Below, piece by piece: positions 1 through 25,700 of a stretch of 32,070 nucleotides of DNA. Position 1 is the first letter of the stretch; each line of letters begins with the position of its first letter. The DNA is from Candidatus Omnitrophota bacterium (lineage in GTDB: Bacteria > Omnitrophota > Gorgyraeia > Zapsychrales > JBDRMG01): assembly GCA_043812495.1 (NCBI GenBank), contig JBDRMG010000041.1, positions 1 through 32,070 of the forward strand, in the 5' to 3' direction. The position numbers were made by a program, and so were the translations under genes. The notes below the pieces were generated by a model. It saw nothing but the letters and a program-made list of their open reading frames with translations. It searched no databases and was not told the origin of the DNA.

Positions 1-19
1 GCCCCGCCAATGGCGGGGC
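1..19. repeat. GC-rich palindrome at the window edge (probably part of a larger palindromic element)
   Basis: GCCCCGCCA-A-TGGCGGGGC is a perfect 9-bp inverted repeat. Similar CCCGCCA..TGGCGGG arms recur at 22600-22622. Confidence 0.6.
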
Positions 20-3529: not shown

Positions 3530-4483
3530 TTATTCGTTCTCGAATTCGCCCATTTTGCGAAATCGTTCGTAACGGTTATCCAAAAGATTTTTCACGGAAA
3601 AAGCGGATAGCTGCTTGATGTATTTTAAAACGACTTTCTTCAATTCATCGGCCACTTGCTCCGGGTCACGGTGGGCTCCCCCTTCCGGCTCAGGGATGAT
3701 TTCATCGATGATGCCGAATCCAAGAAGATCGTCGCTGGTTAATTTGAGGGCCTGGGCCGCTTCGGGAGCCTTCATACTGTTGCGCCAGAGGATCGAGGCG
3801 CATCCTTCCGGAGAAATCACCGAATAATAAGCGTTTTGCAAAATGCAGACCTTATCCGCAATCCCTACACCCAAAGCGCCGCCGCTACCGCCTTCTCCGA
3901 TAATAACAGCGACAATCGGTGAGCTGATCGCAGTCATTTCTTTGAGATTTTCGGCAATCGCCTGGGCCTGACCGCGCTCTTCGGCACCTACGCCGGGATA
4001 GGCGCCCGGCGTATCAATGAGAATCACGATTGGCAAATGGAATTTTGCGGCCAACCGCATCAAACGAATGGCCTTACGATAGCCTTCCGGATGCGCGCAA
4101 CCAAAATTTCTGAGGACATTCTCTTTGGTGTCCCGTCCTTTTTGATGGCCCATGATCATGACTTTCTTACCATTGATTTTTGCAAAGCCGGCCACAAGGG
4201 CCAAGTCATCAGCAAACAACCGGTCTCCGTGCAATTCGACAAAATCCGTCGTGATCATGCGGATATAGTCGAGCGTATAAGGCCGCTGGGGATGGCGGGC
4301 GATCTGCACCTTCTGCCAGGGCGTGAGATTTTTGTAAATCTCTTCTTTCATCTTACTCAGCTTGTCTTCCAGCTTTTTGATTTCGGGTTCGATATTGATC
4401 TTCTTGTCCGAACCAAAATTTCTAAGCTCGTTAATCTTATTTTCCAATTCAATAATGGGTTTCTCGAAATCTAATCCGATCAT
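3530..4483 (-). CDS. accA: Acetyl-CoA carboxylase carboxyltransferase alpha subunit
   Basis: LDFEKPI, ARHPQRP, HPEGYRKA, DTPGAYPG, GEGGSGGAL and YSVISPEGCASILW. Confidence 0.97.
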   Translation of the reverse strand: MIGLDFEKPIIELENKINELRNFGSDKKINIEPEIKKLEDKLSKMKEEIYKNLTPWQKVQIARHPQRPYTLDYIRMITTDFVELHGDRLFADDLALVAGFAKINGKKVMIMGHQKGRDTKENVLRNFGCAHPEGYRKAIRLMRLAAKFHLPIVILIDTPGAYPGVGAEERGQAQAIAENLKEMTAISSPIVAVIIGEGGSGGALGVGIADKVCILQNAYYSVISPEGCASILWRNSMKAPEAAQALKLTSDDLLGFGIIDEIIPEPEGGAHRDPEQVADELKKVVLKYIKQLSAFSVKNLLDNRYERFRKMGEFENE

Positions 4484-7623: not shown

Positions 7624-8049
7624 CTATTTTAATAACTTTTTTGCCTTCGCTAAAAATTGGTCGGCTTTGATGATGATTTGTTCAGCATTCTCTTTTGAAA
7701 AATCCGATTTATAATCAGCATTTTCCCTTAAATCTTTCGCCATATCATAATCATCAAGAAAACTGTATTCAAGCAGATTAGCATCAACAAATAGATTCTT
7801 CAATGCCGCCCTTAAGCAAAAATGGCTCTTTTCACGATAACTTTTAGAATATAGCAAAGCTCTCGCAGCATAAAACATCGCGTAATAAGCGCTGATCGTG
7901 GCCCATTTGGCCTTGCCTATTTTGAGAACATCTTTGGAATCTTTGAAGTCGTAATCCGCTGCCGTCATTTCCTTATCGATCAGAGTCTTGTCAATTTCGA
8001 TTCTAATCAGATTCTTCTTTTCTAAACACCTTTTAAAGTGATAATCCAT
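7624..8049 (-). CDS. HEPN domain protein (UPF0332-like), toxin partner of MNT
   Basis: AYYAMFYAARALL, KSH and R-x4-Y (RENADY). It directly abuts the MNT gene. Confidence 0.85.
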   Translation of the reverse strand: MDYHFKRCLEKKNLIRIEIDKTLIDKEMTAADYDFKDSKDVLKIGKAKWATISAYYAMFYAARALLYSKSYREKSHFCLRAALKNLFVDANLLEYSFLDDYDMAKDLRENADYKSDFSKENAEQIIIKADQFLAKAKKLLK

Positions 8050-8574
8050 TTATTTCTGTTTCCACAAAATAATTCCTTTTTGGATTCGCTCATAAAGCGG
8101 CCGGTCTTTCCTCTCTAAAGCTATAAATTCACCTGTATCAAAAATCAGGGGCTGAATCTCTCTTTTTGTTTTCTGTCGTTTGATAAGCCGGCGCGCTTCA
8201 TCGGCCCGTGACGAAACAATCACAAGATCAATATCGCTATTCGGAGAGTCGATTCCCTCGGCGCAACTCCCAAAAAGGATAACACGACTGGTCAATGGTC
8301 TTAATCGGTTGATAAGGCCATTTATTTCGGTAATGGTTTGCATTACTTTATATTGTCTTACGAGAGGATGATCATAATTAAGGCTGTAGAAATTCATACG
8401 GCCTTTTTTTGAAAGACACAATAACTCCTTTTTAAGAAGCCCCTTGAGTGTTTGATTAGTCGATCCCGCGCTTATATGAGCCCCGGAAGCAATTTGGCTT
8501 TCATAAAGAGCTTCCTCGCTATGGGATGATAAATACTGCAGAATGCGCTGTTCGGATTTTGTCAGTTGCATCAT
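8050..8574 (-). CDS. Winged-HTH + minimal nucleotidyltransferase (MNT) antitoxin
   Basis: N-terminal HTH (YESQIASGAHISAGSTNQTLKGL) and VILFGSCAEG..NSDIDLVIV (GSx10DxD). Confidence 0.88.
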   Translation of the reverse strand: MMQLTKSEQRILQYLSSHSEEALYESQIASGAHISAGSTNQTLKGLLKKELLCLSKKGRMNFYSLNYDHPLVRQYKVMQTITEINGLINRLRPLTSRVILFGSCAEGIDSPNSDIDLVIVSSRADEARRLIKRQKTKREIQPLIFDTGEFIALERKDRPLYERIQKGIILWKQK

Positions 8575-8748: not shown

Positions 8749-9843
8749 GTGACTATCGCCTTTTGTTTCCGGATCTGTCTTCGGATTTCACCCATAGTTA
8801 AAAATTTTAAAATAACATACGTAAATACCATAAGTAAAATCAGGAATATAACGACGTCTTTTTTGTTTCTCGGGACGACTTCGCTTCTTGCGAACAAATA
8901 CTACACCGTCATTGATTCTTTGAATCCTCTTTTCTTTAGCGCAAGCTCCGGGCGTATCATCGGAATCGGCCTAACCATCCTTTTGTTCCTTAACCATGTT
9001 TATCATACGCCCCCCCCCCCCCCCAGAAAACCACTGCCCTTAATATTCTTTGTCCTCACAGCCTTGGGATTAACGGCCTCTGTGATTTCCAATTCTTTTA
9101 TGTTTATTATTTACGCAGTCTTTTTGTATCTCTGTCAGTTCATAAATAATGATGGTGGACTCAAGCATGAAGACTCAAAAAAATCCCTCCTGACTTTTTT
9201 GCCTTTGGTCGTTGTTCTGTCTAGCATTACAACTATGGTTTTGTTATACGTTTTGCCTTTTGATCAAAACGCAGCGCATGTGCTGCGTGCCGTACTGGTC
9301 ACCGTAAATGGTTGTCTATTCGCCGGTTGGTTTCTGGGTAAGTTTTTATCATCCTTGCGCCAAAAGTCCTTTGGCTGGAAACATAAAAATCTCACCATGA
9401 CGTGGCCAATCGTATGCATTATGATTTCAACGCTTGCGGGACTGCTTTTTCTAGGAAATGTCTTTACAAAAAAATCGGTAAGTAAGAAGGTATTCGCACC
9501 CATTTTCACGCAGGCTCAACAATGGCGTTACTCGAAACTAAAAAAAGTCGGCCTCAAAGGAGATTTCTCTCTGGGAGATCATCACATCACTTCCCGCAAA
9601 GATCCTTCGGAGAATTATTCGGCTTATGAATACGAAAAAGGCGGAAATTATTTTGTGGCGACGTTCTCCGGCGTTCTATGGCTCTGGGGGCTTGTCTTGT
9701 TTTTATGGCTCAGGACGGGCAGGTACAAGAAATGGATTCTTTGCCGGGACCGCGATGCTTATTATTCCAACTTGGTGTGGATTGTTATGATCCCTGCTGT
9801 TTTCTTACTTATTGGTTTTATTAACGCAGGCGTGACTTATTAA
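8749..9843 (+). CDS. Hypothetical polytopic membrane protein containing a C15 tract (start uncertain)
   Basis: 364-codon ORF with many hydrophobic segments and no good SD at GTG 8749. The poly-C at 9010-9024 encodes PPPPP. Confidence 0.6.
   Translation: MTIAFCFRICLRISPIVKNFKITYVNTISKIRNITTSFLFLGTTSLLANKYYTVIDSLNPLFFSASSGRIIGIGLTILLFLNHVYHTPPPPPRKPLPLIFFVLTALGLTASVISNSFMFIIYAVFLYLCQFINNDGGLKHEDSKKSLLTFLPLVVVLSSITTMVLLYVLPFDQNAAHVLRAVLVTVNGCLFAGWFLGKFLSSLRQKSFGWKHKNLTMTWPIVCIMISTLAGLLFLGNVFTKKSVSKKVFAPIFTQAQQWRYSKLKKVGLKGDFSLGDHHITSRKDPSENYSAYEYEKGGNYFVATFSGVLWLWGLVLFLWLRTGRYKKWILCRDRDAYYSNLVWIVMIPAVFLLIGFINAGVTY
9010..9024 (+). repeat. C15 homopolymer (simple sequence repeat)
   Basis: 15 consecutive C, the longest G/C run seen in the window. 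Confidence 0.9.
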
Positions 9844-10090
9844 AAATCGCGCTTTTTGGAAATTCCTCTTTATGTGACCATGTTTTTTGTCTCTTTATCT
9901 GATTACCAGATGGCTCAATAAAGCCCAGTATAAATTTCTTGGGCTCTTTATTCTCCTCTATGCAATCATTCCTTTTATCGTCACCCAGCGACCTCAGCAA
10001 ATCCTGGCCAACCTGAAGCTGTTGCTTAACCTATTGCATTTTTCATAATCTCATTGGATTTCCGAAAAAAGATCTTAGGCGGGTAAAGGC

Positions 10091-11992
10091 TTAAAAATTT
10101 ATTCTCCCGCCGGTGCGAAGCTCATAAGCCCACGCCAATAACGCATCTTTGCTGATGACGAAAATGTTGTTCTTTTCGAATAATCTGTATTCTTTAGGAA
10201 TATCACGCAAAGCAAAGGTTTCTCTCATCCGAACAAGGCGCTGGATGAACGGATTAAACGGATAAAAATAAAAACTTCCGCGCTTTAAAAAGTCCTTCTC
10301 AAAATCACCCTCACGTACAACCAAATAATCAATATGATGATCCAGGCAATACTTATAGGTTAAAAGAGGATTGTCCGCGTAGTAAAGGTCGAAAAAGATG
10401 AATAAACGCTTTTTGATCGTGTTCCAGTATTTGTCAAAAAGGGGGACCGCTGTTTCATCATTAACAAATACTTTTCTCTGTGCATAAAGAGGAATATTAT
10501 CCGCCAGAAGCGGATGGGCCGCGATCATGACGTTTCTGGGCAGTGTATTTAAATAATGATATAAATCTTGATTGGCAGATTCATCGATCAAATAAGATCC
10601 TCGATCGATATGAAAAGACGCTAACAGCAAAAAAATAACGAGAACCTGGCATATTCTTTTTAAGTGATCGGTTTTGATTTTTGTCATCAGTTGTCCGAGC
10701 GTAACGGAAAATAAAAGCAAACTGATTATGGGAACCGGATACGCAATATATCGATTGGGCACATAAAGTTTAAATAAGAATATGTCGGCCAGTTTATACA
10801 TCAAAACGCTTGAAAGCAGCAAAAACCATAACGCGGCTGGAAAACAAATTCTTTTCTTAAATGCTTCCCATGCCACGAAGAAAATCATTGCCAATAAGAT
10901 CAGCCAAAAGCCGAATGTCCTTAAAGGTTTCGATAATTTCTGCGAATATTTGGAAATGGATAAGAAGAAGATGTTGCCCTCTTCGGTGTTTTTCTCAACC
11001 TCAAAATGCAAGGGGGCAATGGGAAGCCCGTGGTTCCATCGGCCGATGCCCCGGTAAAACTCGGGCTGATGCAGCATTTCTTTTTTGGTAAATGCCTTGC
11101 CGATTTGCAGATCATAAGACAGCAAATGTTTGGGTCCCAAAATCAAACCGCAAATCACAATTGATAAAAGAAAGTATTTGAGCCCCCGGGGAATTCTTTC
11201 CGAGGGGCTCACCCTGCCCGCCCCGCCGCTTCGCGGCGAAAGCCGCGGGCCGGGGAGCGAGCCCGAAGGGCGAGTCGAAGGGTCTCTGGTTAATGGATCC
11301 TTCGACTCCGTCTCGACTAAAGTCGGGGCTCCGCTCAGGATTTCGGGGTCGGAAACACCCCGACCCCTCAAGTATTTAATCTTTGGATTTGATAATTGGA
11401 AGGATTTCTTGTGAAACGGAATCTCGATAAACGAAAAAAGATAGATCAGGATGCTCAGCAGAAAAACCATGGGATAAAACAAACACTGTAAAATAAGGGC
11501 TAAAAGTGTCTTAGCGTAATCTTTTTTGATGAAATAATAAAGAAACATCACCAGAAAAGGATAAGCAAAGGTCCTTGTTAAGCCGCCGGCCATGCGGCTT
11601 GCGTACGTGGGGGTCAGAAGAAAAACCAAAGCCGACAAAAATCCGACATAATTTCCGGCGATCTCGCGGCCGATTTTAAAAATATAATAAGCGGCCAGAG
11701 TCAGAAGAAAAATCGTTAAAAGCGTTCCGAAGAAAACAGGTTCAAAGAAAAAACTTGATAGATAATATAGAAAATTATATCCCCATGGCCAGCTGTATTT
11801 GGCGGCTTGTGTGAGTAAATCATCCTTAAAAAGCTCGGCATCCTGATACTGCGGCACCCAATAGCTGTTGACGCGCACATCATCCGCCACGATATATTTG
11901 TTTAGAAGCGAAGGGTAATAAAAATATACCGCAAAGCCGATAGCCAAAAGGATAACGAATATTGCGATCTGCTTTTCGTTTACTTTAATCAT
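10091..11992 (-). CDS. GT-C-like polytopic membrane protein (putative glycosyltransferase) carrying a 66-aa in-frame insertion
   Basis: N-terminal TM then an acidic DD loop (IVADDVR), ~11 TMs and a soluble C-terminal domain (DLYHYLNTLP..IDYLVV). The start ATG 11992 overlaps the upstream stop. Confidence 0.75.
   Translation of the reverse strand: MIKVNEKQIAIFVILLAIGFAVYFYYPSLLNKYIVADDVRVNSYWVPQYQDAELFKDDLLTQAAKYSWPWGYNFLYYLSSFFFEPVFFGTLLTIFLLTLAAYYIFKIGREIAGNYVGFLSALVFLLTPTYASRMAGGLTRTFAYPFLVMFLYYFIKKDYAKTLLALILQCLFYPMVFLLSILIYLFSFIEIPFHKKSFQLSNPKIKYLRGRGVSDPEILSGAPTLVETESKDPLTRDPSTRPSGSLPGPRLSPRSGGAGRVSPSERIPRGLKYFLLSIVICGLILGPKHLLSYDLQIGKAFTKKEMLHQPEFYRGIGRWNHGLPIAPLHFEVEKNTEEGNIFFLSISKYSQKLSKPLRTFGFWLILLAMIFFVAWEAFKKRICFPAALWFLLLSSVLMYKLADIFLFKLYVPNRYIAYPVPIISLLLFSVTLGQLMTKIKTDHLKRICQVLVIFLLLASFHIDRGSYLIDESANQDLYHYLNTLPRNVMIAAHPLLADNIPLYAQRKVFVNDETAVPLFDKYWNTIKKRLFIFFDLYYADNPLLTYKYCLDHHIDYLVVREGDFEKDFLKRGSFYFYPFNPFIQRLVRMRETFALRDIPKEYRLFEKNNIFVISKDALLAWAYELRTGGRINF
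11172..11377. mobile_element. 190-bp nested palindromic element (11180-11369) with 8-bp target duplication, in frame within a CDS
   Basis: AAGTATTT at 11172-11179 and 11370-11377, 198 bp apart. About 68% GC by hand count, with several hairpins. Confidence 0.85.
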
Positions 11993-13481
11993 TTTCTTGG
12001 GCATCCGGCCTTCGAATATCAATAATTCTTATCACCGGATTGCTAAAGGCAAAGGTTTTGAATACCGGCTTGATTTCTTCGTAAGGGTAGTTGAATAATT
12101 CCTTGTAGCGCTCATAGGCGCGGTAAACTTCTTCATCCTGGCCTTTAAGCTTATGCGCAAAAAAATAGCGCTCATACTGAAAGCTGCTCGCCACAAGATA
12201 GGTATACCCCAGGCGCTGCCAGGTCCGGACATCATAATCAGCAAGCGACTTAACAAAAAAATAGGGAAAAACGTATTGCTCGCACATGATTTTGTCCGTC
12301 GACTTTGTCATCCACTCAATCGCTTGTTCGCGCGTGTCCTTGTTCAAATTAAAAGTGAGCTTCATGGAATCATAAAATGGCAGCCAAAGGATCATCAGGC
12401 AAAGAACCGCGACGACAGCCATAGCGATCTTCTTCTGATCCATTCTCTTTTGAATCAATAGGATGCTTTTTACGGCAAAATACACAAATGCGGGAACTGC
12501 CGGAATCACGTGCCGGGAGAAATCCGGAAAGGCCTTCATGGGTGTCAGCTCAACCGCAAAATAAAACAGCAATCCGTAAACCAATAAGATTTTTTCCTGC
12601 CAGGGAATTTTCCGCCAATGGATGAGCGAATAAATTATTCCACTTAGGGCTAGCCCCAAGAGAATCCATGTCAATCCCGGCAAAAGACTATACACAAGAT
12701 GAAAGCCGAAAAAAAACGGCCAAGGATACATTTTGACATCATGACCTTGGATGACATGCTGCGTATTCCAAGAAACGGATTCTTTGAAGGTCTGAAAATC
12801 CCAAAAGACCGGATAATTAATGGCGCAAAATATAATGACGGCGACGAGAAGAGTTAAGAGGAGATTGAGAAAATACCGGCGATAACGCGCGGACAGGACA
12901 AATAAAGGAATGGCAAAATAAAAAGGAATCAACAATATTCCTTTGTACTGACTGGATAAAGCGAGCCCGGTTGCGATCCCAAGCCAAAGACCGTTCACAA
13001 GACTATAATTCTCAGCATAGCGCAGCAAAAAGAACAGAGAAAGCATGGCAAAATACGTAAAGATAATATCCTCTTTGAAGTAATGGGCGTGAATCACAAT
13101 AATGGGCGATGCGGCTAGCGTTAAAGCGGCCATCAGGGCATACGGTTTGTCCAAGCAAAAGCGGAAAACAAGATAAGAAAATAAAATGAGAAGGACGCCG
13201 AAGACAGCGGTGGACATACGGCCTAAACGAACAATCTTATTATGGTCTTTGAAATCAAAGAGCCGGTTGGCCACCCGCACCACCTGAAGCATCAACAGCG
13301 GATGATGAAAGTCGTTTCCGCCTTTCTGAATAAATTTTACTTTTTTGGGTTCATCCACATGATACCCGAAGGAGAAATCATTGTTCCACATGTTCAAAAA
13401 AAGAGAAATCAGAAGAACCCCGCAAAGGACAAATAATTCCTGGGCCTTAGAGAGTTTCATGAAGCCGTTTTTATTTGTCAT
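11985..13481 (-). CDS. Glycosyltransferase family 39/83-like (PMT_2/ArnT-type, GT-C fold)
   Basis: FGYHVDE, FHHPLLM, LGRMSTAVFG, HAHYFKED and GLALSSQYKG. The start ATG 13481 is coupled to the upstream stop. Confidence 0.8.
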   Translation of the reverse strand: MTNKNGFMKLSKAQELFVLCGVLLISLFLNMWNNDFSFGYHVDEPKKVKFIQKGGNDFHHPLLMLQVVRVANRLFDFKDHNKIVRLGRMSTAVFGVLLILFSYLVFRFCLDKPYALMAALTLAASPIIVIHAHYFKEDIIFTYFAMLSLFFLLRYAENYSLVNGLWLGIATGLALSSQYKGILLIPFYFAIPLFVLSARYRRYFLNLLLTLLVAVIIFCAINYPVFWDFQTFKESVSWNTQHVIQGHDVKMYPWPFFFGFHLVYSLLPGLTWILLGLALSGIIYSLIHWRKIPWQEKILLVYGLLFYFAVELTPMKAFPDFSRHVIPAVPAFVYFAVKSILLIQKRMDQKKIAMAVVAVLCLMILWLPFYDSMKLTFNLNKDTREQAIEWMTKSTDKIMCEQYVFPYFFVKSLADYDVRTWQRLGYTYLVASSFQYERYFFAHKLKGQDEEVYRAYERYKELFNYPYEEIKPVFKTFAFSNPVIRIIDIRRPDAQEND

Positions 13482-15300
13482 AATATCTTTCGGTGCTATA
13501 CGCCTTGCCTTCCAATTGTCTTTTTTGATACAAAGAAAGCACTTTGTATCGCAGCATTTCGATTCCAAAACCACCCACAAAAAGGCGCATTGTCATATCT
13601 CCGTATTGAATGACCTTGACGATCTGATCCCGCTCTGAAACCGGATAATCAGGCCCTTCATTGTAGCTCGAGAGCCAAAGGGTCCGCCTTAAGTCGAAAT
13701 CACCCAGACCATTAAAATTCTTTATTCCTCCATATGTGCAAGGCATGCCGTAAATCATAATATTCATCTTCTTGTGTACAAATCCCATCTCGGGAAAAGC
13801 CAGCATCTGGGCATACATATGGGGAGCGCCGATCGTCCAGTGCGCAAACTTCTCTTCTAGAAACTCCGCCAATTTCATTTGCATCTTCAAATCGATACGG
13901 TACTGCAGGCTTCTTTCTAAGAGAACATGATAGCTGTAATCAATCTGCGGCTGTAAGAATCCGTAGGAACAGAACAAAGAGATGATAATCGCCGCACTCA
14001 GGCCGGCTTTAATGAATTTTTCCTTTTGAAGAAGAGCTCTGGAAGAAAAAAATACGCAGAACACCAGAAACGGATACGCCAATAATTGATAACGGGGACT
14101 CACCGAATAAGACTGCAGATACAAACCAAACCATGCCCCTAGGCAAACAAACATCACGATAGGAATATAATACTTCTCAAAAAAGTCCATTTTGAGCTTT
14201 TCCCTGCCTTGCGCATCAAGAAATTTCTCTTTGATAAAAAGTCCTGCGAAAACAAGAAAGCTTAAAGCGGAAATATAGGTGATCATAAAAACTTTTAAAG
14301 ACGGCCAACCTTGAAAAAGGCCCACCATATCAATCTTGTCCTGAACGCTAAAGACAATATGGACCGCCGCATACAGGGCCGCCGAAAATAACATGCCCCC
14401 CAGTCCCCAAAGCAAATTCTTTATTTTTAAACGATGGACCTTGTCGAAAAAAAACATATAAAGACTGATCATAAAAACTGTTGCGCAGACAAGAACCCCC
14501 ACGCCCTTGACCATGGTCGCGCCAATGGCAAAAAGCATGGCCTTCGGCATATCTTTGCCGGCCAGAAAATAGATGGAAAGAATCGCAAAAATCAGCGTTG
14601 GGATTTCCATATTGATGGCCTCGACTTGGCTCTGAAACAACGGCAAAGATAAAAGCAGAATCGCACCCAAAAGGGCGAATTCGGCAGGATAGAGTTTCCG
14701 AAATATCTCCCTAAGAAGAGAAACGATCCAAGCACCCAGCGCAAAAACAATCAAATGATTCACGACAAGAAATGTTTTCACATGCGGGATGAATTTCATC
14801 AAAAGAGCCTGGAATGTCGGATAAATCGAAAACAAATAGACTTTGGGACCACCGGAAATAAAATCCGACTGTTTGGCCAAATCCAGATAGTTAAAGGAAT
14901 GCTTGAAAAGCCACAGGCTTTCGGCGAAAGGTCCGCCGATCGCATCCCCGTACGGCGGATAAAAAAGAACTTCCGGTCTTGATAAAATCAAATAACCGGA
15001 TACGGCCCAAGCAAAAACTTTCGCATTGGAATCTTTCAAAAAGCGTAAGGATAAAATCAAGAAAGCCGTACCGCTTAAAAGCATCCACAAGGGGCCGAAG
15101 ATCATCTGTTCTGTTTTTCCTTGATAAAAATCCAAGGATTGCGCTTCCCGGGCACCGCTCAAGCGGTTCAGGAGGCTAATTTTGTTTTCTTGAAATAAAT
15201 TCTCAATCAAAGAAGAAAAGGACAACTTCACAAAAAAGGAAAAAACAAGCAATAAAACGATTGCGCTTAAAATCAGGATGTCGTTGCGTTGTTTTTGCAT
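13471..15300 (-). CDS. Polytopic membrane protein, probable GT-C glycosyltransferase
   Basis: 609 aa with many TMs, PPYGD loop, NMEIP, ATMVKG and PRY motif before a soluble C-terminal domain. Confidence 0.65.
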   Translation of the reverse strand: MQKQRNDILILSAIVLLLVFSFFVKLSFSSLIENLFQENKISLLNRLSGAREAQSLDFYQGKTEQMIFGPLWMLLSGTAFLILSLRFLKDSNAKVFAWAVSGYLILSRPEVLFYPPYGDAIGGPFAESLWLFKHSFNYLDLAKQSDFISGGPKVYLFSIYPTFQALLMKFIPHVKTFLVVNHLIVFALGAWIVSLLREIFRKLYPAEFALLGAILLLSLPLFQSQVEAINMEIPTLIFAILSIYFLAGKDMPKAMLFAIGATMVKGVGVLVCATVFMISLYMFFFDKVHRLKIKNLLWGLGGMLFSAALYAAVHIVFSVQDKIDMVGLFQGWPSLKVFMITYISALSFLVFAGLFIKEKFLDAQGREKLKMDFFEKYYIPIVMFVCLGAWFGLYLQSYSVSPRYQLLAYPFLVFCVFFSSRALLQKEKFIKAGLSAAIIISLFCSYGFLQPQIDYSYHVLLERSLQYRIDLKMQMKLAEFLEEKFAHWTIGAPHMYAQMLAFPEMGFVHKKMNIMIYGMPCTYGGIKNFNGLGDFDLRRTLWLSSYNEGPDYPVSERDQIVKVIQYGDMTMRLFVGGFGIEMLRYKVLSLYQKRQLEGKAYSTERYYDK

Positions 15301-15353
15301 AAGGCGGGAGAATTACAAGTATGTCTATATAGAAATTTATTCGATTATACAAA

Positions 15354-15540
15354 TAAACGCGAATTTACGCAGATCTAACGCAGATGGTCGCAGATAAATG
15401 TATGCCTAACGATAAAAATAGAATCTGCGAAAATCTGCCCGCCTCGGCCTTTGGCCTCATCGAGGCCGGGCGTTTGATCTTGCCTGCTCGCCTGTCTGCC
15501 GACAGGCAGCAGGCAAGCAGGCGCGTGAATCTGCGTTCAA
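15354..15540. repeat. CGCAGAT/ATCTGCG element, copy 1 (two nested palindromic inserts)
   Basis: Four CGC(A/G)(G/A)AT units, then ATCTGC units. Highly similar to 19761-19902, plus an extra 42 bp at 15481-15522. Confidence 0.85.
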
Positions 15541-15632
15541 GTCAACTTCCTTTTCTACATTTTGGCATGTCCTAATTCTCTGCAATTTAATTTAAAAAAA
15601 ATAGAATAACATTTCCGGAGATCTGTTTATTT

Positions 15633-16013
15633 CTACTTATTCAGAAAATAAATGCCGAGAACAACCAGGATAATACCGATAAATTTCAAAGACGTCATTT
15701 GCTCGCCGAGAACAAAGACAGCCAGGATGATCAGGATAAGAAAATTCAATCCCACCTGGGCCGGGTACGCGACCGTGATATCCATGCGCGATAAAGCGAT
15801 CGCAAATAAAAAGGGAGCCGCAAAAAACAAGACGAGACCCAGGATCACCAAAGGTGATCTGATAAAAAGAAGAAAGTACGCAAAGACGGATCTTAAGGAA
15901 TCGCACTTAATGGCTCCCATCTCATTGAGACGCCATTTGATGATAAACACGCCGCCCGCATTACACAGCACGCTTAAAATCAGCATGCCCCAGGTTAAGA
16001 AAAGGCTATTCAT
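15633..16013 (-). CDS. SMR/EamA-type small 4-TM transporter (ArnE/ArnF-like flippase)
   Basis: 126 aa with 4 TMs, ALSRMDITVAYP and FVLGEQMT..KFIGIILVVLG. Confidence 0.8.
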   Translation of the reverse strand: MNSLFLTWGMLILSVLCNAGGVFIIKWRLNEMGAIKCDSLRSVFAYFLLFIRSPLVILGLVLFFAAPFLFAIALSRMDITVAYPAQVGLNFLILIILAVFVLGEQMTSLKFIGIILVVLGIYFLNK

Positions 16014-16044
16014 TAAAAACCTCTCTGTTCATCAATGGGGTTGA

Positions 16045-16962
16045 CTATTCAATGGTATATTCGATGACATACGGCGGCCGTTTGCGCGATTCATCGTAGG
16101 TACGCCAAAGATATTCGCCTAAGATTCCCAGCATCATCATCTGAATGCCGCCAATGACTAAAACAGCGACGATCAATGATGACCAACCTTCCACCGGAGC
16201 ACCGTACAAGAAACACCATAAAACATACGCCGCATAGATAAAACCTAAAAGGGCGGTGCAAAATCCGATCACGCTCATATAGCGGATGGGAATATCGCTA
16301 AAGGACAAAAGAGAATCGATGGTGAGTTTAATCTTTTTGCCGAGCGTCCATTTGGATTGTCCTTTGTGGCGTGCTTCTTTGACGTAAAAAATCGACGCCT
16401 GGGGAAACCCGAGCCAGGCGAGCGTCATAAAAATCGAAGAATGTTTTTCGGGAACCTTTTTGAGGGCTTCGATCACCACGCGATCAATCAAAAAGACGTC
16501 CGCGCCTGAAGGCGGCACCTTGACATTCGTCAGCCAGTTCATCAGGGCATAATAGAGACCCGCGCAAAGTTTTGTGGTCGAGCTCTCTCCTTTTCGTTTT
16601 GTGCGTACTCCCCAAACGATCTTGACGTTGTCCTTCCGGGCATCAAGTAAATCCTTGATGATTTCCGGCGGGTCCTGAAGATCCGCTCCCAGGACGATCG
16701 CGCAATCACCATGCGCGTAGGCTAATCCCGCGTTTAAAGCCGCGTGACTTCCGCAGTTACGGGCAAAACGGATAATTTTGATTCTCGGGTCTTTGTTGCG
16801 CAGTTCTTTAAGAATCTCCGGAGAATGATCCGTGGAGCAATCATCGACAAAAATGAATTCAAAATCCTGAGGGTTCATTTTACTAATGGCTGTGCACAAA
16901 CGCTCGTACAAAGCCTGGAGATTGCCTTGTTCGTTAAAAACAGGGAAAATGACAGTGATCAT
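16045..16962 (-). CDS. GT2 polyprenyl-phosphate glycosyltransferase (ArnC/GtrB-like)
   Basis: VIFPVFNE, FVDDCSTD, RNCGSHAA, ADLQDPP, two C-terminal TMs and LGEYLWR..RPPY. Confidence 0.9.
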   Translation of the reverse strand: MITVIFPVFNEQGNLQALYERLCTAISKMNPQDFEFIFVDDCSTDHSPEILKELRNKDPRIKIIRFARNCGSHAALNAGLAYAHGDCAIVLGADLQDPPEIIKDLLDARKDNVKIVWGVRTKRKGESSTTKLCAGLYYALMNWLTNVKVPPSGADVFLIDRVVIEALKKVPEKHSSIFMTLAWLGFPQASIFYVKEARHKGQSKWTLGKKIKLTIDSLLSFSDIPIRYMSVIGFCTALLGFIYAAYVLWCFLYGAPVEGWSSLIVAVLVIGGIQMMMLGILGEYLWRTYDESRKRPPYVIEYTIE

Positions 16963-17615
16963 TTTTGTACCTTCCTTATGATTTTGGCCGGATTGCCTGC
17001 GGCCACAACTTCTTTGTCGAGATTGGCAATAACGTTTGAACCAATACCCACAAGGCTTTTTTCACCAATGGTAATTTGATCACGGATGCTTGTCCGTGAG
17101 CCGATATAGCAATTGGATTGGATAGTCACAGAGCCGGACACGGAAACATTGGAACCGATGCAGGTATAATCGCCGATTTGGCTATCATGTGAAAGTACCG
17201 TATGCGGCAAAACAATACAGTGATTCCCGATGGAAACGCCGCAGCTGACCACCACATAGGGCATCAAAAGCGTATTATAACCTATTTTGGCATCGGCCGA
17301 AATATTGACCGTGGGATGAATAATGGTCGCAAACCGGGATGGGTCTATCTTGAGGCTATCAATAATCTCTTTTCGCTTAAAATAATTTTCGGGATTTCCC
17401 GGAACCGCGAGAACAAAGGCATCCGGAAAGTCTTTGAGTTTTTCTTTGCCGCCCAGCACTTTAATGCCGTTGAGCTCTTTTTCTTTATGCGATGGATTAT
17501 CGTCGAGAAAACCGCAAACATCCCATTCCATTTTTTCTTTGTTAATATCCTGGATGGTCCCGAGGGCCTCTTTGGCGTTTCCGCCGAATGGAAAAAGAAT
17601 TAATTTCTTAGACAT
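16959..17615 (-). CDS. Sugar N/O-acetyltransferase, NeuD/PglD family (hexapeptide repeats)
   Basis: GGNAKE, GFLDD, ATIIHP, left-handed beta-helix repeats and AGNPAK. Confidence 0.9.
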   Translation of the reverse strand: MSKKLILFPFGGNAKEALGTIQDINKEKMEWDVCGFLDDNPSHKEKELNGIKVLGGKEKLKDFPDAFVLAVPGNPENYFKRKEIIDSLKIDPSRFATIIHPTVNISADAKIGYNTLLMPYVVVSCGVSIGNHCIVLPHTVLSHDSQIGDYTCIGSNVSVSGSVTIQSNCYIGSRTSIRDQITIGEKSLVGIGSNVIANLDKEVVAAGNPAKIIRKVQK

Positions 17616-18759
17616 TCTTGAGCGCCTTGATGACGGTTTTCATTTCTTGATCCTTCATCGTTGTGAACAAAGGCAGCAGAATCACGGAATCCCTGGCCAG
17701 TTTGGAATTTTTCAAGGAAAAAACTGCGCGCGCCTTTCGGGCATAAGCTTTTTCCTGGTGACTATTCATAATGCCCGGCCGGGTGGAAATTCCTTTCTTG
17801 AGTAAATAGCGCATCAGCTGGTTGCGGCCGAGCGGCGCGCTTTTCAAAATTCTCACGGCAAAGCTCTGCCAGTTGCTGCGGGCATATTTCGGTTGTTCAG
17901 GACATTGAAGCCAGGAAATATTTTTAAGTTCTCTCTGGTAAATACGCGCAAGCCTCCGGCGTTTGCGAAGTATTGCGGGAAGTTTCTTGAGCTGCTCAAG
18001 ACCGATCGCTGCCTGGATATCGGTCAGGCGATAATTAAACCCGATAACCGGATATTTTTCTATCATGATTTTCTTGGATTGATGGCGCGCAAGATCTGAA
18101 ACGCTCATGCCTTGATGGCGCAACAAGCGAAAGATTTTGTCATACTGTGCGTGTTTTGTCGTCAGCATTCCGCCTTCACCCGTTGTGATCAGCTTGCGAG
18201 GATGAAAAGAAAAACACGCAATGTCGCCGTGCGGTTTGCCGATTTTCTTCCATGTTTTTCCGTTTAAGGAGATTTCGCTTCCAAGTGCGCAAGCGGCATC
18301 TTCAATCACGGGAATTTTGTATTTTCTGGCCAATAGTAGGATTCCTTTTAAATCGCAGGGCATGCCCATTTGATGAACAACCAAAATGGCTTTGAAACGC
18401 TTGTGCTTTTGTTCAAGGCATCTTTGAAGCTCTCCCGAAGACATGTTAAATGTCTTCAGATCGATATCGACAAAAACGGGCTGCGCCCCGCAATAGGTGA
18501 TGCAGTTGGCGGTCGCGATAAAAGAATGACTGACCGTGATGACGGAATCTCCGGATTTTACTCCGACGGCCAAAAGAGCTAAATGTAAGGCTGTCGTGCA
18601 ATTGGACACCGCGCAGGCATACTTTGCGCCGACATATTTGGCCAAGGCCTTTTCAAACTCTTGGACCTTGGGCCCTTGCGCAACCCATCCTGATAAAATC
18701 ACTTTGCGCGCGGCCTCAACTTCTTTTTTTGTCAGATAAGGTTTCGCGATGGGAATCAT
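17608..18759 (-). CDS. DegT/DnrJ/EryC1/StrS PLP-dependent aminotransferase
   Basis: MIPIAKP, VSNCTTALHLAL, IEDAACALG, FSFHPRKLITTGEGG and GFNYRLTD. The start is taken as ATG 18759. Confidence 0.93.
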   Translation of the reverse strand: MIPIAKPYLTKKEVEAARKVILSGWVAQGPKVQEFEKALAKYVGAKYACAVSNCTTALHLALLAVGVKSGDSVITVSHSFIATANCITYCGAQPVFVDIDLKTFNMSSGELQRCLEQKHKRFKAILVVHQMGMPCDLKGILLLARKYKIPVIEDAACALGSEISLNGKTWKKIGKPHGDIACFSFHPRKLITTGEGGMLTTKHAQYDKIFRLLRHQGMSVSDLARHQSKKIMIEKYPVIGFNYRLTDIQAAIGLEQLKKLPAILRKRRRLARIYQRELKNISWLQCPEQPKYARSNWQSFAVRILKSAPLGRNQLMRYLLKKGISTRPGIMNSHQEKAYARKARAVFSLKNSKLARDSVILLPLFTTMKDQEMKTVIKALKNV

Positions 18760-18760
18760 G

Positions 18761-19732
18761 TTATGCCTTTTGTTGATCAAGCCAATGAACTAGACGTGTC
18801 AGTCCCTCTTTCAGATTAACTTGTGCCTCGAAGCCAATTTCTTCTTTAGCTTTTCCGACATCCGCCATACGTCTTTGCACTTCTACTTTTTGTCGGCCTT
18901 CGGGAAGGGGAACCTTTTTAGGTTTTAATGTAGAGCTCATCACATCCAGTAAGGACTGGCAAAGCTCCAAAAGAGACGTCTCTTGTCCGCTGGCAATATT
19001 ATACACCTCATTGATGGTATCCGCTTTTAACGCTAGTAAGCTTGCCCGCGCGATATCCTCGACATAAATAAAATCCATGGTCTGCGTTCCGTCTCCGTAG
19101 ATAAGCGGCGCTTGTCCTTCTTTGATCAAACGGTACCAGCGGATGAGCACCTCGGTATAGCGACCGTGAATATCCATGCGCGGCCCGTAAATATTAAAAT
19201 AGCGCAGGGCCTGATAGGTAAGACCATACATCTGTTGGAATGTCCGCAGCATAAGCTCATTGGCCATTTTCGCCGCGCCATAAAGCGTAAAATTATTGTA
19301 GGGATGGTGTTTTTCGGTCGTCGGGAACAATTCGGCCTGGCCGTAGACGGAAGCGGTGGATGCAAAAATGATTTTTTTGATCTTACGCGCGACGCTTGCT
19401 TCCAGAACATTAAAGGTTCCGTCATACATGACCTCAAGAGCCTCGCGTGGCTCTTGGGCGCAATGCGTGATGCGCAAAGCCGCCAGATGAAAACAATAAT
19501 CCACCCCTTCCAAAAGGCGAAGAAGAAGTGCGCGATCACGGATATCGCCCTCAACAAATGTCACCTTGCCGGACGAAAGGGCCGGTTCGATATTTTTCTT
19601 GGAACCGCGAATCAGATTATCCAGGATCACGATTTCTTTCGGATGCTCATCCAAAAGCTGTTCGGTAATAAAAGAACCGACGAAACCGGTTCCGCCGGTT
19701 ATAAGAATTTTTGTGTTTTGTAAGTTATTCAT
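18761..19732 (-). CDS. NAD-dependent nucleotide-sugar epimerase/dehydratase (SDR)
   Basis: ITGGTGFVG, ASTASVYG, YGAAK, LRYFNIYGPR and DFIYVED. Confidence 0.93.
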   Translation of the reverse strand: MNNLQNTKILITGGTGFVGSFITEQLLDEHPKEIVILDNLIRGSKKNIEPALSSGKVTFVEGDIRDRALLLRLLEGVDYCFHLAALRITHCAQEPREALEVMYDGTFNVLEASVARKIKKIIFASTASVYGQAELFPTTEKHHPYNNFTLYGAAKMANELMLRTFQQMYGLTYQALRYFNIYGPRMDIHGRYTEVLIRWYRLIKEGQAPLIYGDGTQTMDFIYVEDIARASLLALKADTINEVYNIASGQETSLLELCQSLLDVMSSTLKPKKVPLPEGRQKVEVQRRMADVGKAKEEIGFEAQVNLKEGLTRLVHWLDQQKA

Positions 19733-19760
19733 AGATAATTTTTTTGAAATTAAAATGATT

Positions 19761-19902
19761 TAAACGCAAATTTACGCAGATCAAACGCAAATGGTCGCAG
19801 ATAGATATATTGAACGATAAAATTGGATCTGCGATAATCTGCCCGCCTCGGCCTTTGGCCTCATCAAGGCCGGGCGTTAGATTTGCGTTTATCTACGTTT
19901 AA
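19761..19902. repeat. CGCAGAT/ATCTGCG element, copy 2
   Basis: Direct-repeat homologue of 15354-15540 with the same CCGCCTCGGCCTTTGGCCTCATCRAGGCCGGGC insert. Confidence 0.85.
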
Positions 19903-19945
19903 AATATGAATTTTTAAACACCTATCAATAAGAAGCTCCTCCTGT

Positions 19946-21379
19946 TTATATTTTTACTTCTTGATTTCTGATAAAGATGAAATAAATAGCAGCAGCTGTC
20001 AGGATAACAATCCCCCCTTGAAGAGCGTACATCGCATGCGACATCCAGGGTCCCATATTCATATAATAGAATTGATCGGGAAATTCAAGAACTTTTCCGC
20101 TCCATGGCCAGGCGTGAATCGGCAGCCAGACTTTTGAGAAAACCAGAGACAATAGACCCAAAACCCAGAAGTGAATTCTCTTGATAGTCAGCTGATCCAT
20201 GGCCTTTATAAGAAACGGCACCAAAAAGGGGAATGTGTTCATTTGCTTTCGAGACTCGCTGTCCAAGGCAAACACCACCACCAAAACCATGCACAACAGC
20301 AATCCCGGGCCGCACTCTTGAATCAGGCGGCAAAAAGGCTTCCACAAAAAGAAAAGAAAAAGAACGACAGGTCCAAAATACATCACGTGGGAAACAAGGA
20401 ACGCTCCCGGCTGCATGGCGCTGACGATCAAAAGATTCGTGATCAAGTAGTCAAGCGGCCGGGCATCGTGCTTGACGGCTCCATAATACAAAATTAGTTT
20501 AACGACCATTATCACCGATACGGCCATGATCCATCGAGTCGGCCGCAAGTGCCTTGTCCAGTATTTTCCTTGATAAAGTTCGCCCTGATTGAACAGTGGG
20601 CTGAGCGTCGCGAAAAGATAAGCGATCACGATCCCAATGCTGACGTAGATGACGGACATGATGGGTCTATTGGATCCCATGGAAAAAATGCCGTAGGCAT
20701 AAATGGCGCCGGAATGAAGCACTTTCAAAATCATCTGCATTTTCCAAAGGACAAAAACGCTAAGGCCAATCGGTAAAGCAAAATTCAAAAAAAGAGGCGC
20801 CGGGCTGGTTTCTTTGAGAGCGTGCTGATCGCGCGGAAAAAGAATTAAGATTGTTCCCGTGTAAAGAATCGTCGGCCAAATGAAAGAACCGATGACGACA
20901 AGGGACAAAAGAGCCCAGACATTATTCTTAAGATAAAAATAAATCAAAGACAGCGTGATCGCGTAGGCAAACAGATCGGTCGAAACCTGAATATAAGGAA
21001 TGTACTTAAGAATATGGAAATTACAAAATAAAGCGATTGCTCCCAACCAGCGACCTTGTTGAGATAGACGAATCTCGTCGCTAATGAGGCACCACACATA
21101 AGCGATGAGCCCCAACAAAAGGACGTTGATGAATCCAAAGGCATGAACAATGTTGTCGATCGTTAAGGGAATCGAGAAAAGTTTTAAAGAATAATGAACC
21201 AGGGCGCAGGGAAGAATTCTTTGCAAGCGGTAATCATCGAGACCATGCTCAAAGACCAACGGTTGAAAAAACTTGGTGATGAGTAAATAATATTTTTCGT
21301 CCCCCAGTGAACCGGCCTGGGGTGCTTTTTCGCCAAAAAAGAATCCGGCAAGCCCGATCAGAAGGGCCAAGGTGATCAA
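19946..21379 (-). CDS. Polytopic membrane protein, possible GT-C glycosyltransferase (start may be ATT 21433)
   Basis: About 12 TMs, GDEKYY loop after TM1, RILP, STD and ESR motifs. It lies inside the glycosylation operon. Confidence 0.65.
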   Translation of the reverse strand: MITLALLIGLAGFFFGEKAPQAGSLGDEKYYLLITKFFQPLVFEHGLDDYRLQRILPCALVHYSLKLFSIPLTIDNIVHAFGFINVLLLGLIAYVWCLISDEIRLSQQGRWLGAIALFCNFHILKYIPYIQVSTDLFAYAITLSLIYFYLKNNVWALLSLVVIGSFIWPTILYTGTILILFPRDQHALKETSPAPLFLNFALPIGLSVFVLWKMQMILKVLHSGAIYAYGIFSMGSNRPIMSVIYVSIGIVIAYLFATLSPLFNQGELYQGKYWTRHLRPTRWIMAVSVIMVVKLILYYGAVKHDARPLDYLITNLLIVSAMQPGAFLVSHVMYFGPVVLFLFFLWKPFCRLIQECGPGLLLCMVLVVVFALDSESRKQMNTFPFLVPFLIKAMDQLTIKRIHFWVLGLLSLVFSKVWLPIHAWPWSGKVLEFPDQFYYMNMGPWMSHAMYALQGGIVILTAAAIYFIFIRNQEVKI

Positions 21380-22590: not shown

Positions 22591-22691
22591 CTCAATGAGC
22601 CCGCCATTGATTCAGTGGCGGGCGAATTGACCCCCACACCAATTATGAAATAATTGGTGTGGGGGTATAAACAAATTTAAATAGAATATTT
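22591..22691 (-). repeat. Two-hairpin scaffold element, copy B
   Basis: Minus strand AAATATTCTATTTAAATTTGTTTATACCCC-hp1-GGGGTCAATTCGC-hp2-GCTCATTGAG. Confidence 0.8.
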
Positions 22692-25581: not shown

Positions 25582-25700
25582 GGAAATATCAAATTATATT
25601 TGCTCTATCCCCGCCTCTTGCATTCTGCAAGAATGCGGCGGGGTCAATTTGCACTTATCAGTTACGTTCCCTACGGTCACGTAACTTATGTGCTCATTGA
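25579..25700 (+). repeat. Two-hairpin scaffold element, copy C
   Basis: TGAGGAAATATCAAATTATATTTGCTCTATCCCC-hp1-GGGGTCAATTTGC-hp2-GCTCATTGA. Confidence 0.8.

What the first reader, a model, noticed from the sequence alone, without database searches (positions are those of the whole stretch)
11172..11377. Nested palindromic element inserted in frame, adding 66 aa to a GT-C-like membrane protein
Seen: AAGTATTT occurs at 11172 and 11370, exactly 198 bp (66 codons) apart. It flanks 190 bp of ~68% GC in an otherwise AT-rich gene. The protein reads ...NPKI-KY-LRGRGVSDPE...ERIPRGL-KY-FLLSIV, and removing the insert plus one repeat restores ...NPKIKYFLLSIV, a normal loop-to-TM junction. The insert is a Russian doll: terminal hairpins GAGCCCC/GGGGCTC (11180-11210) and GGGGTCGG/CCGACCCC (11345-11367), and a central GAGTCGAAGG/CCTTCGACTC stem. 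Its outer CCTG(AGCG)/CGCTCAGG arms are each interrupted by a further palindrome, one with a CTCCG duplication. Known precedent: Rickettsia palindromic elements add peptides to proteins. Inference: several successive insertions left the frame open and stop-free, so the gene may be under selection and this repeat family may create new protein sequence. Alternatively the structured insert is removed or bypassed at the RNA level.
Basis: partly seen in the sequence, partly recalled or inferred. Interest (0 to 1): 0.85.

Follow-up and report, generated by a model that had tools for sequence, protein, structure and literature searches.

The report
Mini-transposon inserted in frame in glycosyltransferase
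A small hairpin-rich jumping DNA element landed once, in frame, in a membrane sugar-transferase gene of an uncultured bacterium and added 66 probably floppy amino acids; such events are known, but this element family joins the ends of an unclassified transposase-bearing insertion sequence to the hairpins of a small single-strand DNA nuclease gene.

Summary
In detail: an 8-bp direct repeat, 190 bp at 68% GC, and a 66-residue gap against homologues. The reading needs correcting. The nest was built before it arrived: the whole composite sits at a second site in this genome (184/192 identical), and without its inner 40-bp palindrome it would shift the frame. It is a MITE. Relatives run from 30 to 549 bp; 56 of 84 end-paired copies have an exact 7-10-bp duplication, mostly 8 bp around a central TA. 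Their ends match (window: 17/18 and 12/18) the terminal repeats of a 1.1-kb insertion sequence with a Tn5-like DDE transposase, found in relatives but not in this assembly. The longest family members carry a small GIY-YIG gene of the Ssn type between the same ends, probably as a passenger. The host is a GT-C-fold enzyme with conserved residues intact; the insert is predicted disordered in a loop. Three more in-frame cases were found, one in the only secDF of its genome. Nothing supports RNA-level removal. The scan noted this family earlier on other DNA (e1-802025, e1-1215480). In-frame MITEs are known from Rickettsia.

The parts
11172..11179 (+). left copy of the target-site duplication (8 bp; or 6 bp at 11173-11178 if the terminal T belongs to the element)
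   Evidence: fits the family target consensus ANWTAWNT
11179..11211 (+). left terminal hairpin cap holding a degenerate terminal inverted repeat (12/18 to the IS end)
11212..11284 (+). left inner arm of CGTC/SRM type, interrupted by the sub-palindrome
   Evidence: the same arm type flanks GIY-YIG genes
11216..11255 (+). 40-bp GC-rich sub-palindrome, absent from the C8 sister copy and present at 5 other places in this genome (C29, C1, C10, C53, C56)
11296..11341 (+). right inner arm (pairs with the left arm), with a nested small hairpin between two CTCCG copies
11345..11370 (-). right terminal hairpin cap holding the terminal inverted repeat (17/18 to the IS end)
11370..11377 (+). right copy of the target-site duplication
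10091..11992 (-). host gene: 633-aa GT-C-fold membrane glycosyltransferase (P0001); insert = residues 206-271, in the basic loop between helices 174-186 and 269-291

Best explanation
The insert is one copy of a non-autonomous miniature inverted-repeat element (MITE). Shown: its ends are terminal repeats (consensus TGAGGGGTCGGGGAGTTT), each folded into a hairpin cap; its inside is a pair of CGTC/SRM-type palindromic arms with further hairpins nested in them; family members make an 8-bp (7-10) duplication at a palindromic A+T-rich target with a central TA; a 1.1-kb insertion sequence with the same ends encodes a Tn5-like DDE transposase in two reading frames. Inferred: that transposase, supplied in trans, pasted the ready-made 190-bp composite into the gene in one step. 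The family descends from a cassette in which these ends enclose a small Ssn-type GIY-YIG gene and its hairpins, by loss of the gene. Inferred for the host: the element landed in a basic, probably cytoplasmic loop, happened to keep the frame, is translated as a 66-residue disordered Pro/Ser/Arg/Gly-rich loop, and is tolerated rather than useful.
For: Sister copies at unrelated sites of this genome: C8, C2 and C64 with their own exact 8-bp repeats, C29 with 6 of 8. 56 of 84 end-paired elements have exact 7-10-bp repeats against 72 of 6642 mismatched flank pairs. T at position 4 and A at 5 in 85 of 90 strand-symmetrised 8-bp targets; a symmetric target suits a dimeric DDE enzyme (established knowledge). 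Two full-length IS copies, L464 (G004) and L488 (G194), carry the consensus repeat at both ends and flanks that fit the same target; a third genome has two right ends after the same ORF. The ORF has D..D..E-x6-K residues, a weak DDE_Tnp_1_6 hit under the cut-off, and its model matches Tn5 transposase at Z 12.4, rmsd 4.2, 207 aligned. 1126 homologous clusters, the listed ones mostly on contigs of 1-2 kb, as expected of a repeated element that breaks assemblies. Uncapped GIY-YIG cassettes lack such repeats: 1 of 57. Host: GT-C fold, insert region pLDDT under 50 while the rest folds well (mean 85.7), 56 of 66 conserved columns kept against a median of 57, only copy found in G000.
Against: The transposase was not found in this genome, nor in 19 of 20 element-bearing genomes tested, nor by profile in 5 of 5; 2 of 401 phylum genomes and 1 of 401 class genomes had it. 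Both full-length IS copies carry stop codons and their flanks match at only 6 of 8 positions, so the IS itself is not shown to make the 8-bp duplication. The window's left end is only 12/18 like the IS end. Positions 4-7 of the ends vary widely. The insertion looks recent, so the undecayed host gene does not prove that it still works.
Confidence: 0.72

Rival explanations
1. The capped GIY-YIG (Ssn-type) protein is itself the mobiliser: it nicks single-stranded DNA at the hairpins and host repair pastes the element, and the shared ends with the DDE IS are secondary.
For: The only intact gene seen between two hairpin caps is this roughly 100-aa nuclease (C64, L189-191, L270, L380). These 6 proteins form a clade among 107 homologues (SH-aLRT 96, quick tree). 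Copies in records titled Sumerlaeota are deletion derivatives of the nuclease cassette. This genome holds the capped nuclease gene but not the IS. SsnA cuts ssDNA a few bases 5' of its hairpin and its authors raise mobility as a hypothesis (PMC11893778).
Against: One capture of a cassette between IS ends also gives a clade. The C64 copy has no in-frame ATG. Copy-rich genomes lack the capped nuclease (best hits 37-56% identical). Uncapped cassettes have no tidy duplication (1 of 57). A DDE IS with the same ends exists. SsnA showed no activity on dsDNA, and no strand-transfer activity is reported in the sections read.
Confidence: 0.15
2. One reading: several hairpins inserted one after another inside the gene, each time keeping the frame under selection.
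For: The element is a true nest; the 40-bp sub-palindrome moves between carriers.
Against: The whole nest is at C29 too; removing the sub-palindrome gives a 158-bp, frameshifting insert; only the outer ends carry the family duplication.
Confidence: 0.04
3. The insert is removed or bypassed at the RNA level (splicing, ribosome hopping), so the protein has no extra loop.
For: Strong structure and direct repeats that could serve as take-off and landing sites.
Against: The frame is open, so nothing needs bypassing; no Rfam family reaches its threshold; the repeats are explained as a target duplication; most copies are intergenic.
Confidence: 0.03
4. The insertion is real but has crippled the enzyme (or is a recent, mildly harmful passenger on its way out); the open frame is luck.
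For: Recent insertion (perfect repeat, 184/192 to C29); chance of an open frame is about 15%; the gene family is patchy (14 of 168 genomes in the order), so it may be dispensable; strong mRNA hairpins may slow translation (inference). This rival concerns the host protein only and is compatible with the MITE origin.
Against: Tolerant site: two homologues have natural loops about 45 residues longer here; all 4 of 56 insertions with at least 100 codons of open frame on both sides are in frame and stop-free, one in the only secDF of G088.
Confidence: 0.25

Closest known systems
Prokaryotic MITEs mobilised in trans by IS transposases, type II (PMC10969869, passages read)
   Same: 50-500 bp, terminal repeats shared with an autonomous IS, target duplication, hairpin-rich, can fuse in frame with host ORFs.
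   Different: The cognate IS matches no Pfam family above cut-off; each end is itself a hairpin that can move alone (30-43 bp); the inside comes from a nuclease cassette, not from the transposase gene.
Rickettsia palindromic elements (RPE; Ogata 2000 and 2002, seen only as summarised in PMC10969869 and PMC3733652)
   Same: About 150-200 bp palindromes inserted in frame, adding a peptide to unrelated proteins.
   Different: Different phylum; here in-gene copies are a minority (4 of 56 by a strict test); a candidate transposase and a defined duplication are identified. Sequence homology to RPEs was not tested.
Ssn nucleases with NTS/SRM hairpins (Chenal et al. 2025, PMC11893778: abstract, introduction, sections 6, 8, 12 and passages read)
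   Same: Single-domain GIY-YIG gene of about 100 aa between inverted GTCAT-type hairpins; 61 of 86 homologous genes have such tags on both sides.
   Different: Extra terminal caps and an exact duplication; the published SRM pattern matches 0 of 56 capped elements and both sides of only 4 of 86 homologous genes; the word 'duplication' does not occur in the paper's main text.
CGTC-tagged REP dimers (Di Nocera et al. 2013, PMC3733652, passages read)
   Same: Inverted pair of tagged palindromes; intragenic copies; in one species CGTC dimers sit inside a longer palindrome.
   Different: That paper says CGTC repeats seem to lack a dedicated transposase and does not mention GIY-YIG; here a capped subset has a candidate DDE mobiliser.
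IS4/IS5-type DDE transposases (Tn5/IS50 best structural match)
   Same: RNase H fold, D-D-E with a basic residue 7 after the E; IS50 duplicates 9 bp (recalled).

Membership tests
MITE | terminal inverted repeats | tested here: met
   (17/18 and 12/18 to the consensus; left end degenerate)
MITE | target-site duplication | tested here: met
   exact here; 56 of 84 in the family against 1.1% in controls
MITE | small, no transposase, several copies at unrelated sites | tested here: met
MITE | autonomous IS with the same ends | tested here: met
   L464, L488; not found in the window's own assembly
MITE | mobilisation by that transposase | not testable with these tools
   needs a transposition assay
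Ssn/SRM system | single-domain GIY-YIG of about 100 aa flanked by inverted hairpins (sister elements) | tested here: met
   PF01541; flanks
Ssn/SRM system | hairpin fits the published SRM pattern | tested here: not met
   0 matches in the window element, 0 of 56 capped elements
Ssn/SRM system | assignment to cd10448 | not testable with these tools
   no CDD library; NCBIfam gave only sub-threshold GIY-YIG hits
Ssn/SRM system | site-specific ssDNA cleavage | not testable with these tools
   biochemistry
Rickettsia RPE families | in-frame palindromic insertion in a coding sequence | tested here: met
Rickettsia RPE families | sequence homology to an RPE family | not tested
   no RPE sequences were fetched
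IS982 family (for the helper IS) | ends 5'-AC and no K/R six or seven residues after the catalytic E (PMC7335449, passages) | tested here: not met
   ends are (T)GAG and K is invariant 7 residues after E
IS256 family as mobiliser | Transposase_mut gene with matching ends | tested here: not met
   0 in G000; 2 of 5 genomes have it and the ends seen do not match
IS1595 family as mobiliser | DDE_Tnp_IS1595 gene in carriers | tested here: inconclusive
   0 of 5 incomplete genomes
DDE (RNase H-fold) transposase | fold and acidic triad | tested here: met
   Z 12.4 to Tn5 transposase; the top ranks are all transposases or integrases; motifs
GT-C glycosyltransferase (host) | multi-helix membrane fold with an acidic motif after the first helix | tested here: met
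   top Foldseek hits STT3, PglB, AglB, DPY19 (E 5e-8 to 1e-3); D38 conserved; no Pfam or NCBIfam hit
GT-C glycosyltransferase (host) | donor, acceptor and activity | not testable with these tools
   needs assays

The most novel reading that the evidence does not exclude
An unclassified, very widespread DDE insertion sequence has lent its ends to an Ssn nuclease-hairpin cassette, making a hybrid mini-transposon that spreads the nuclease gene and CGTC-type repeats with a precise 8-bp duplication; or, bolder, the capped Ssn clade takes part in the movement itself. Either way this gives a named enzyme pair and substrate for testing how CGTC/SRM repeats, said to lack a transposase, get around, and its copies supply translated 49-66-residue loops to working proteins such as SecDF.
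Probability: 0.4. Interest if true: 0.62.

Novelty: new variant of a known kind. Interest (0 to 1): 0.42.

Why it matters
The single insertion is an ordinary kind of event. The family matters more: it shows, with controls, that a subset of Ssn-type cassettes and their hairpins really moved as units, which the Ssn paper only hypothesised, and it points to a candidate DDE helper of an unassigned IS family. It also adds clean, recent, datable cases of new protein sequence arising from selfish DNA, with the empty site known to the base.

Tried and rejected
IS256 and IS1595 as helpers. Pfam scan of 47 of 76 ORFs beside 23 unpaired ends found no DDE transposase, only one Y1 (IS200/RAYT-like) gene and one phage-type integrase. 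A scan of all loci and G000 for long elements with exact repeats found no IS. The helper transposase gave no hit in viral contigs, plasmids or phages and no solved-structure hit by sequence; Foldseek alone gave no match at E<=0.001. Sequencing runs: no RNA holder listed; contigs of two DNA runs covered two parts of the gene at 100% but none spanned a junction, so reads neither confirm nor refute the assembly. Rfam: one sub-threshold hit. Many alphaproteobacterial hits of the genome-wide pattern scan belong to another repeat family and were dropped before counting (filter). The careful tree did not finish; the quick tree was used. The test for repeats beside uncapped cassettes used only the innermost tags and may miss outer ones. 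Whether the terminal T and A belong to the element could not be settled: 4 of 9 single-mismatch repeats differ at an outermost base, which mildly favours a 6-bp duplication.

Full report
Observation. The 8-bp repeat, the 198-bp spacing, the 68% GC core and the hairpins are as described. The segment folds far better than shuffles. It lies in the frame of a 633-aa protein on the minus strand. Homologues lack it: a gap of about 66 columns in 8 of 8 first hits, in homologues from 13 other genomes of the order including the same family, and a span of 136 residues against a median of 68 in 149 homologues. An assembly chimera would not be expected to restore the homologue length so neatly (inference); reads were uninformative.

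Host. The model (mean pLDDT 85.7) matches STT3, PglB, AglB and DPY19, so the GT-C call holds. Residues 192-257 have pLDDT under 50, between helices 174-186 and 269-291. The loop is rich in Lys/Arg, so I infer it is cytoplasmic, away from the acidic motif at D37-D38. The protein keeps 56 of 66 conserved columns (median 57) and is the only copy found in this 90%-complete genome.

One insertion, not several. BLAST finds the whole composite at C29 (184 of 192 bases identical, flanks 6 of 8 alike) and a shorter form at C8 that lacks exactly the 40-bp sub-palindrome. The C8 form adds 158 bp, a frameshift. So the nest was assembled elsewhere and arrived complete. Over 55 elements without masked bases, 50 of 330 strand and phase combinations are frame-preserving and stop-free, so this outcome needs no special mechanism.

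The family. Two more sisters with exact repeats are in this genome (C2, C64). A right-end pattern rang in 9 of 301 phylum genomes, up to 27 times in one; an end-plus-target pattern in 17 of 168 order genomes. Records titled Omnitrophota, Planctomycetota and Sumerlaeota also hold it (titles as deposited). Of 84 end-paired elements, 56 have an exact repeat (45 of 8 bp, 8 of 9, 2 of 7, 1 of 10); 9 more differ by one base and several of the rest are false pairings. Control: 72 of 6642 mismatched pairs. The target is palindromic with a central TA; the outer A and T are fixed by my search design. An enlarged set gave 70 exact cases of 30-549 bp, including solo caps. Copies within a genome are not independent.

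The nuclease cassette. C64 carries a GIY-YIG frame between the same ends. So do L189-191, L270 and L380, and broken versions occur in records titled Sumerlaeota. Wider homologues are flanked by inverted GTCAT-type tags in 61 of 86 cases (2 of 172 shuffled sides). This matches the Ssn/SRM system of PMC11893778, a paper I was led to by earlier notes of the scan and then read in part. The capped proteins form one clade, 6 of 107, but the strict SRM pattern does not match the capped elements. Of the six, only C64 has an exact repeat and it lacks an in-frame ATG.

The helper IS. I looked and found L464 in G004: 1.1 kb, the family's consensus repeat at both ends, two frames around a conserved A-run, DDE motifs, one premature stop. 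L488 in G194 is a second full-length copy with stops, and G094 has fragments with the same right end. It has 1126 homologous clusters, none of the listed ones named beyond 'hypothetical', a sub-threshold DDE_Tnp_1_6 hit and a Tn5-like fold. It is not IS982. Against it: absent from 19 of 20 carrier assemblies including this one, and its two copies have only 6 of 8 matching flanks. Repeated IS are often lost from binned genomes (established knowledge; consistent with the short contigs), but that remains an excuse until intact copies are read. The programmed -1 frameshift is inferred from the conserved A-run and the split frames.

New protein sequence. With at least 100 codons of open frame on both sides, 4 of 56 copies are intragenic and all 4 are in frame and stop-free: this one, L130 (+58 aa in SecDF, the only secDF in G088), L347 (+49 aa) and L378 (+58 aa). 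By contrast L097 shifts the frame near the start of an integrase gene. That pattern suggests purging of disruptive hits and tolerance of in-frame ones (inference; two cases share a genome). Nothing shows the peptides have a function. The L347 case appears to be what note e1-1215480 described.

Verdict. Real feature; a MITE working like an RPE; most likely moved by a DDE transposase in trans (0.72), with the Ssn-type nuclease a passenger rather than the engine (0.15 for engine). Nine paper searches found no description of the family, within the limits of the library. New variant of a known kind; interest 0.42.

Noticed in passing
G000 C64, C29, C17, C18, C50, C66 and others: 16 GIY-YIG domain matches in a 1.9-Mb genome, most in short frames; several sit beside tRNA genes, two with part of the tRNA repeated on both sides (C66, C18).
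   Followed up: partly
G000 C29:25316 and C64:53107: The element's terminal TGA supplies the stop codon of the neighbouring host gene (a signal-peptidase-like ORF at C29, an ABC-ATPase-like ORF at C64; names from reading the sequence), because the target's central TA often lies in a TAA stop.
   Followed up: partly
G000 C53:1-33714: An open frame of at least 11,238 codons fills the contig and reads through a hairpin repeat that holds the same 40-bp sub-palindrome at 3678-3729.
   Followed up: no
window 8749-21379: Cluster of several multi-pass membrane proteins (one PMT_2 hit at 11985-13580; three more without Pfam hits) beside sugar-modification genes: likely a surface-glycan locus with several GT-C-like enzymes.
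   Followed up: no
window 7624-8574 (-): HEPN plus nucleotidyltransferase gene pair, the layout of MNT-HEPN toxin-antitoxin modules.
   Followed up: no
window 3-19, about 22600-22622 and 25610-25643: Three short CCCGCC...GGCGGG hairpins of another repeat type.
   Followed up: no
L201, L203, L204: Uncapped GIY-YIG cassettes flanked by long (about 20-35 bp), imperfect repeats of the host gene junction rather than a short exact duplication; may mark a different insertion route.
   Followed up: no
L387, L393, L392: Elements of this family inserted inside the GIY-YIG gene of another copy of the same family.
   Followed up: no
L377:4978-5351: A 374-bp element whose inside looks like the start of an IS110-type transposase gene (motif recalled, not tested).
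   Followed up: no
L067-L185, alphaproteobacterial records: A different abundant palindromic repeat family shares the inner hairpin pattern but has other arms and no such duplication.
   Followed up: no
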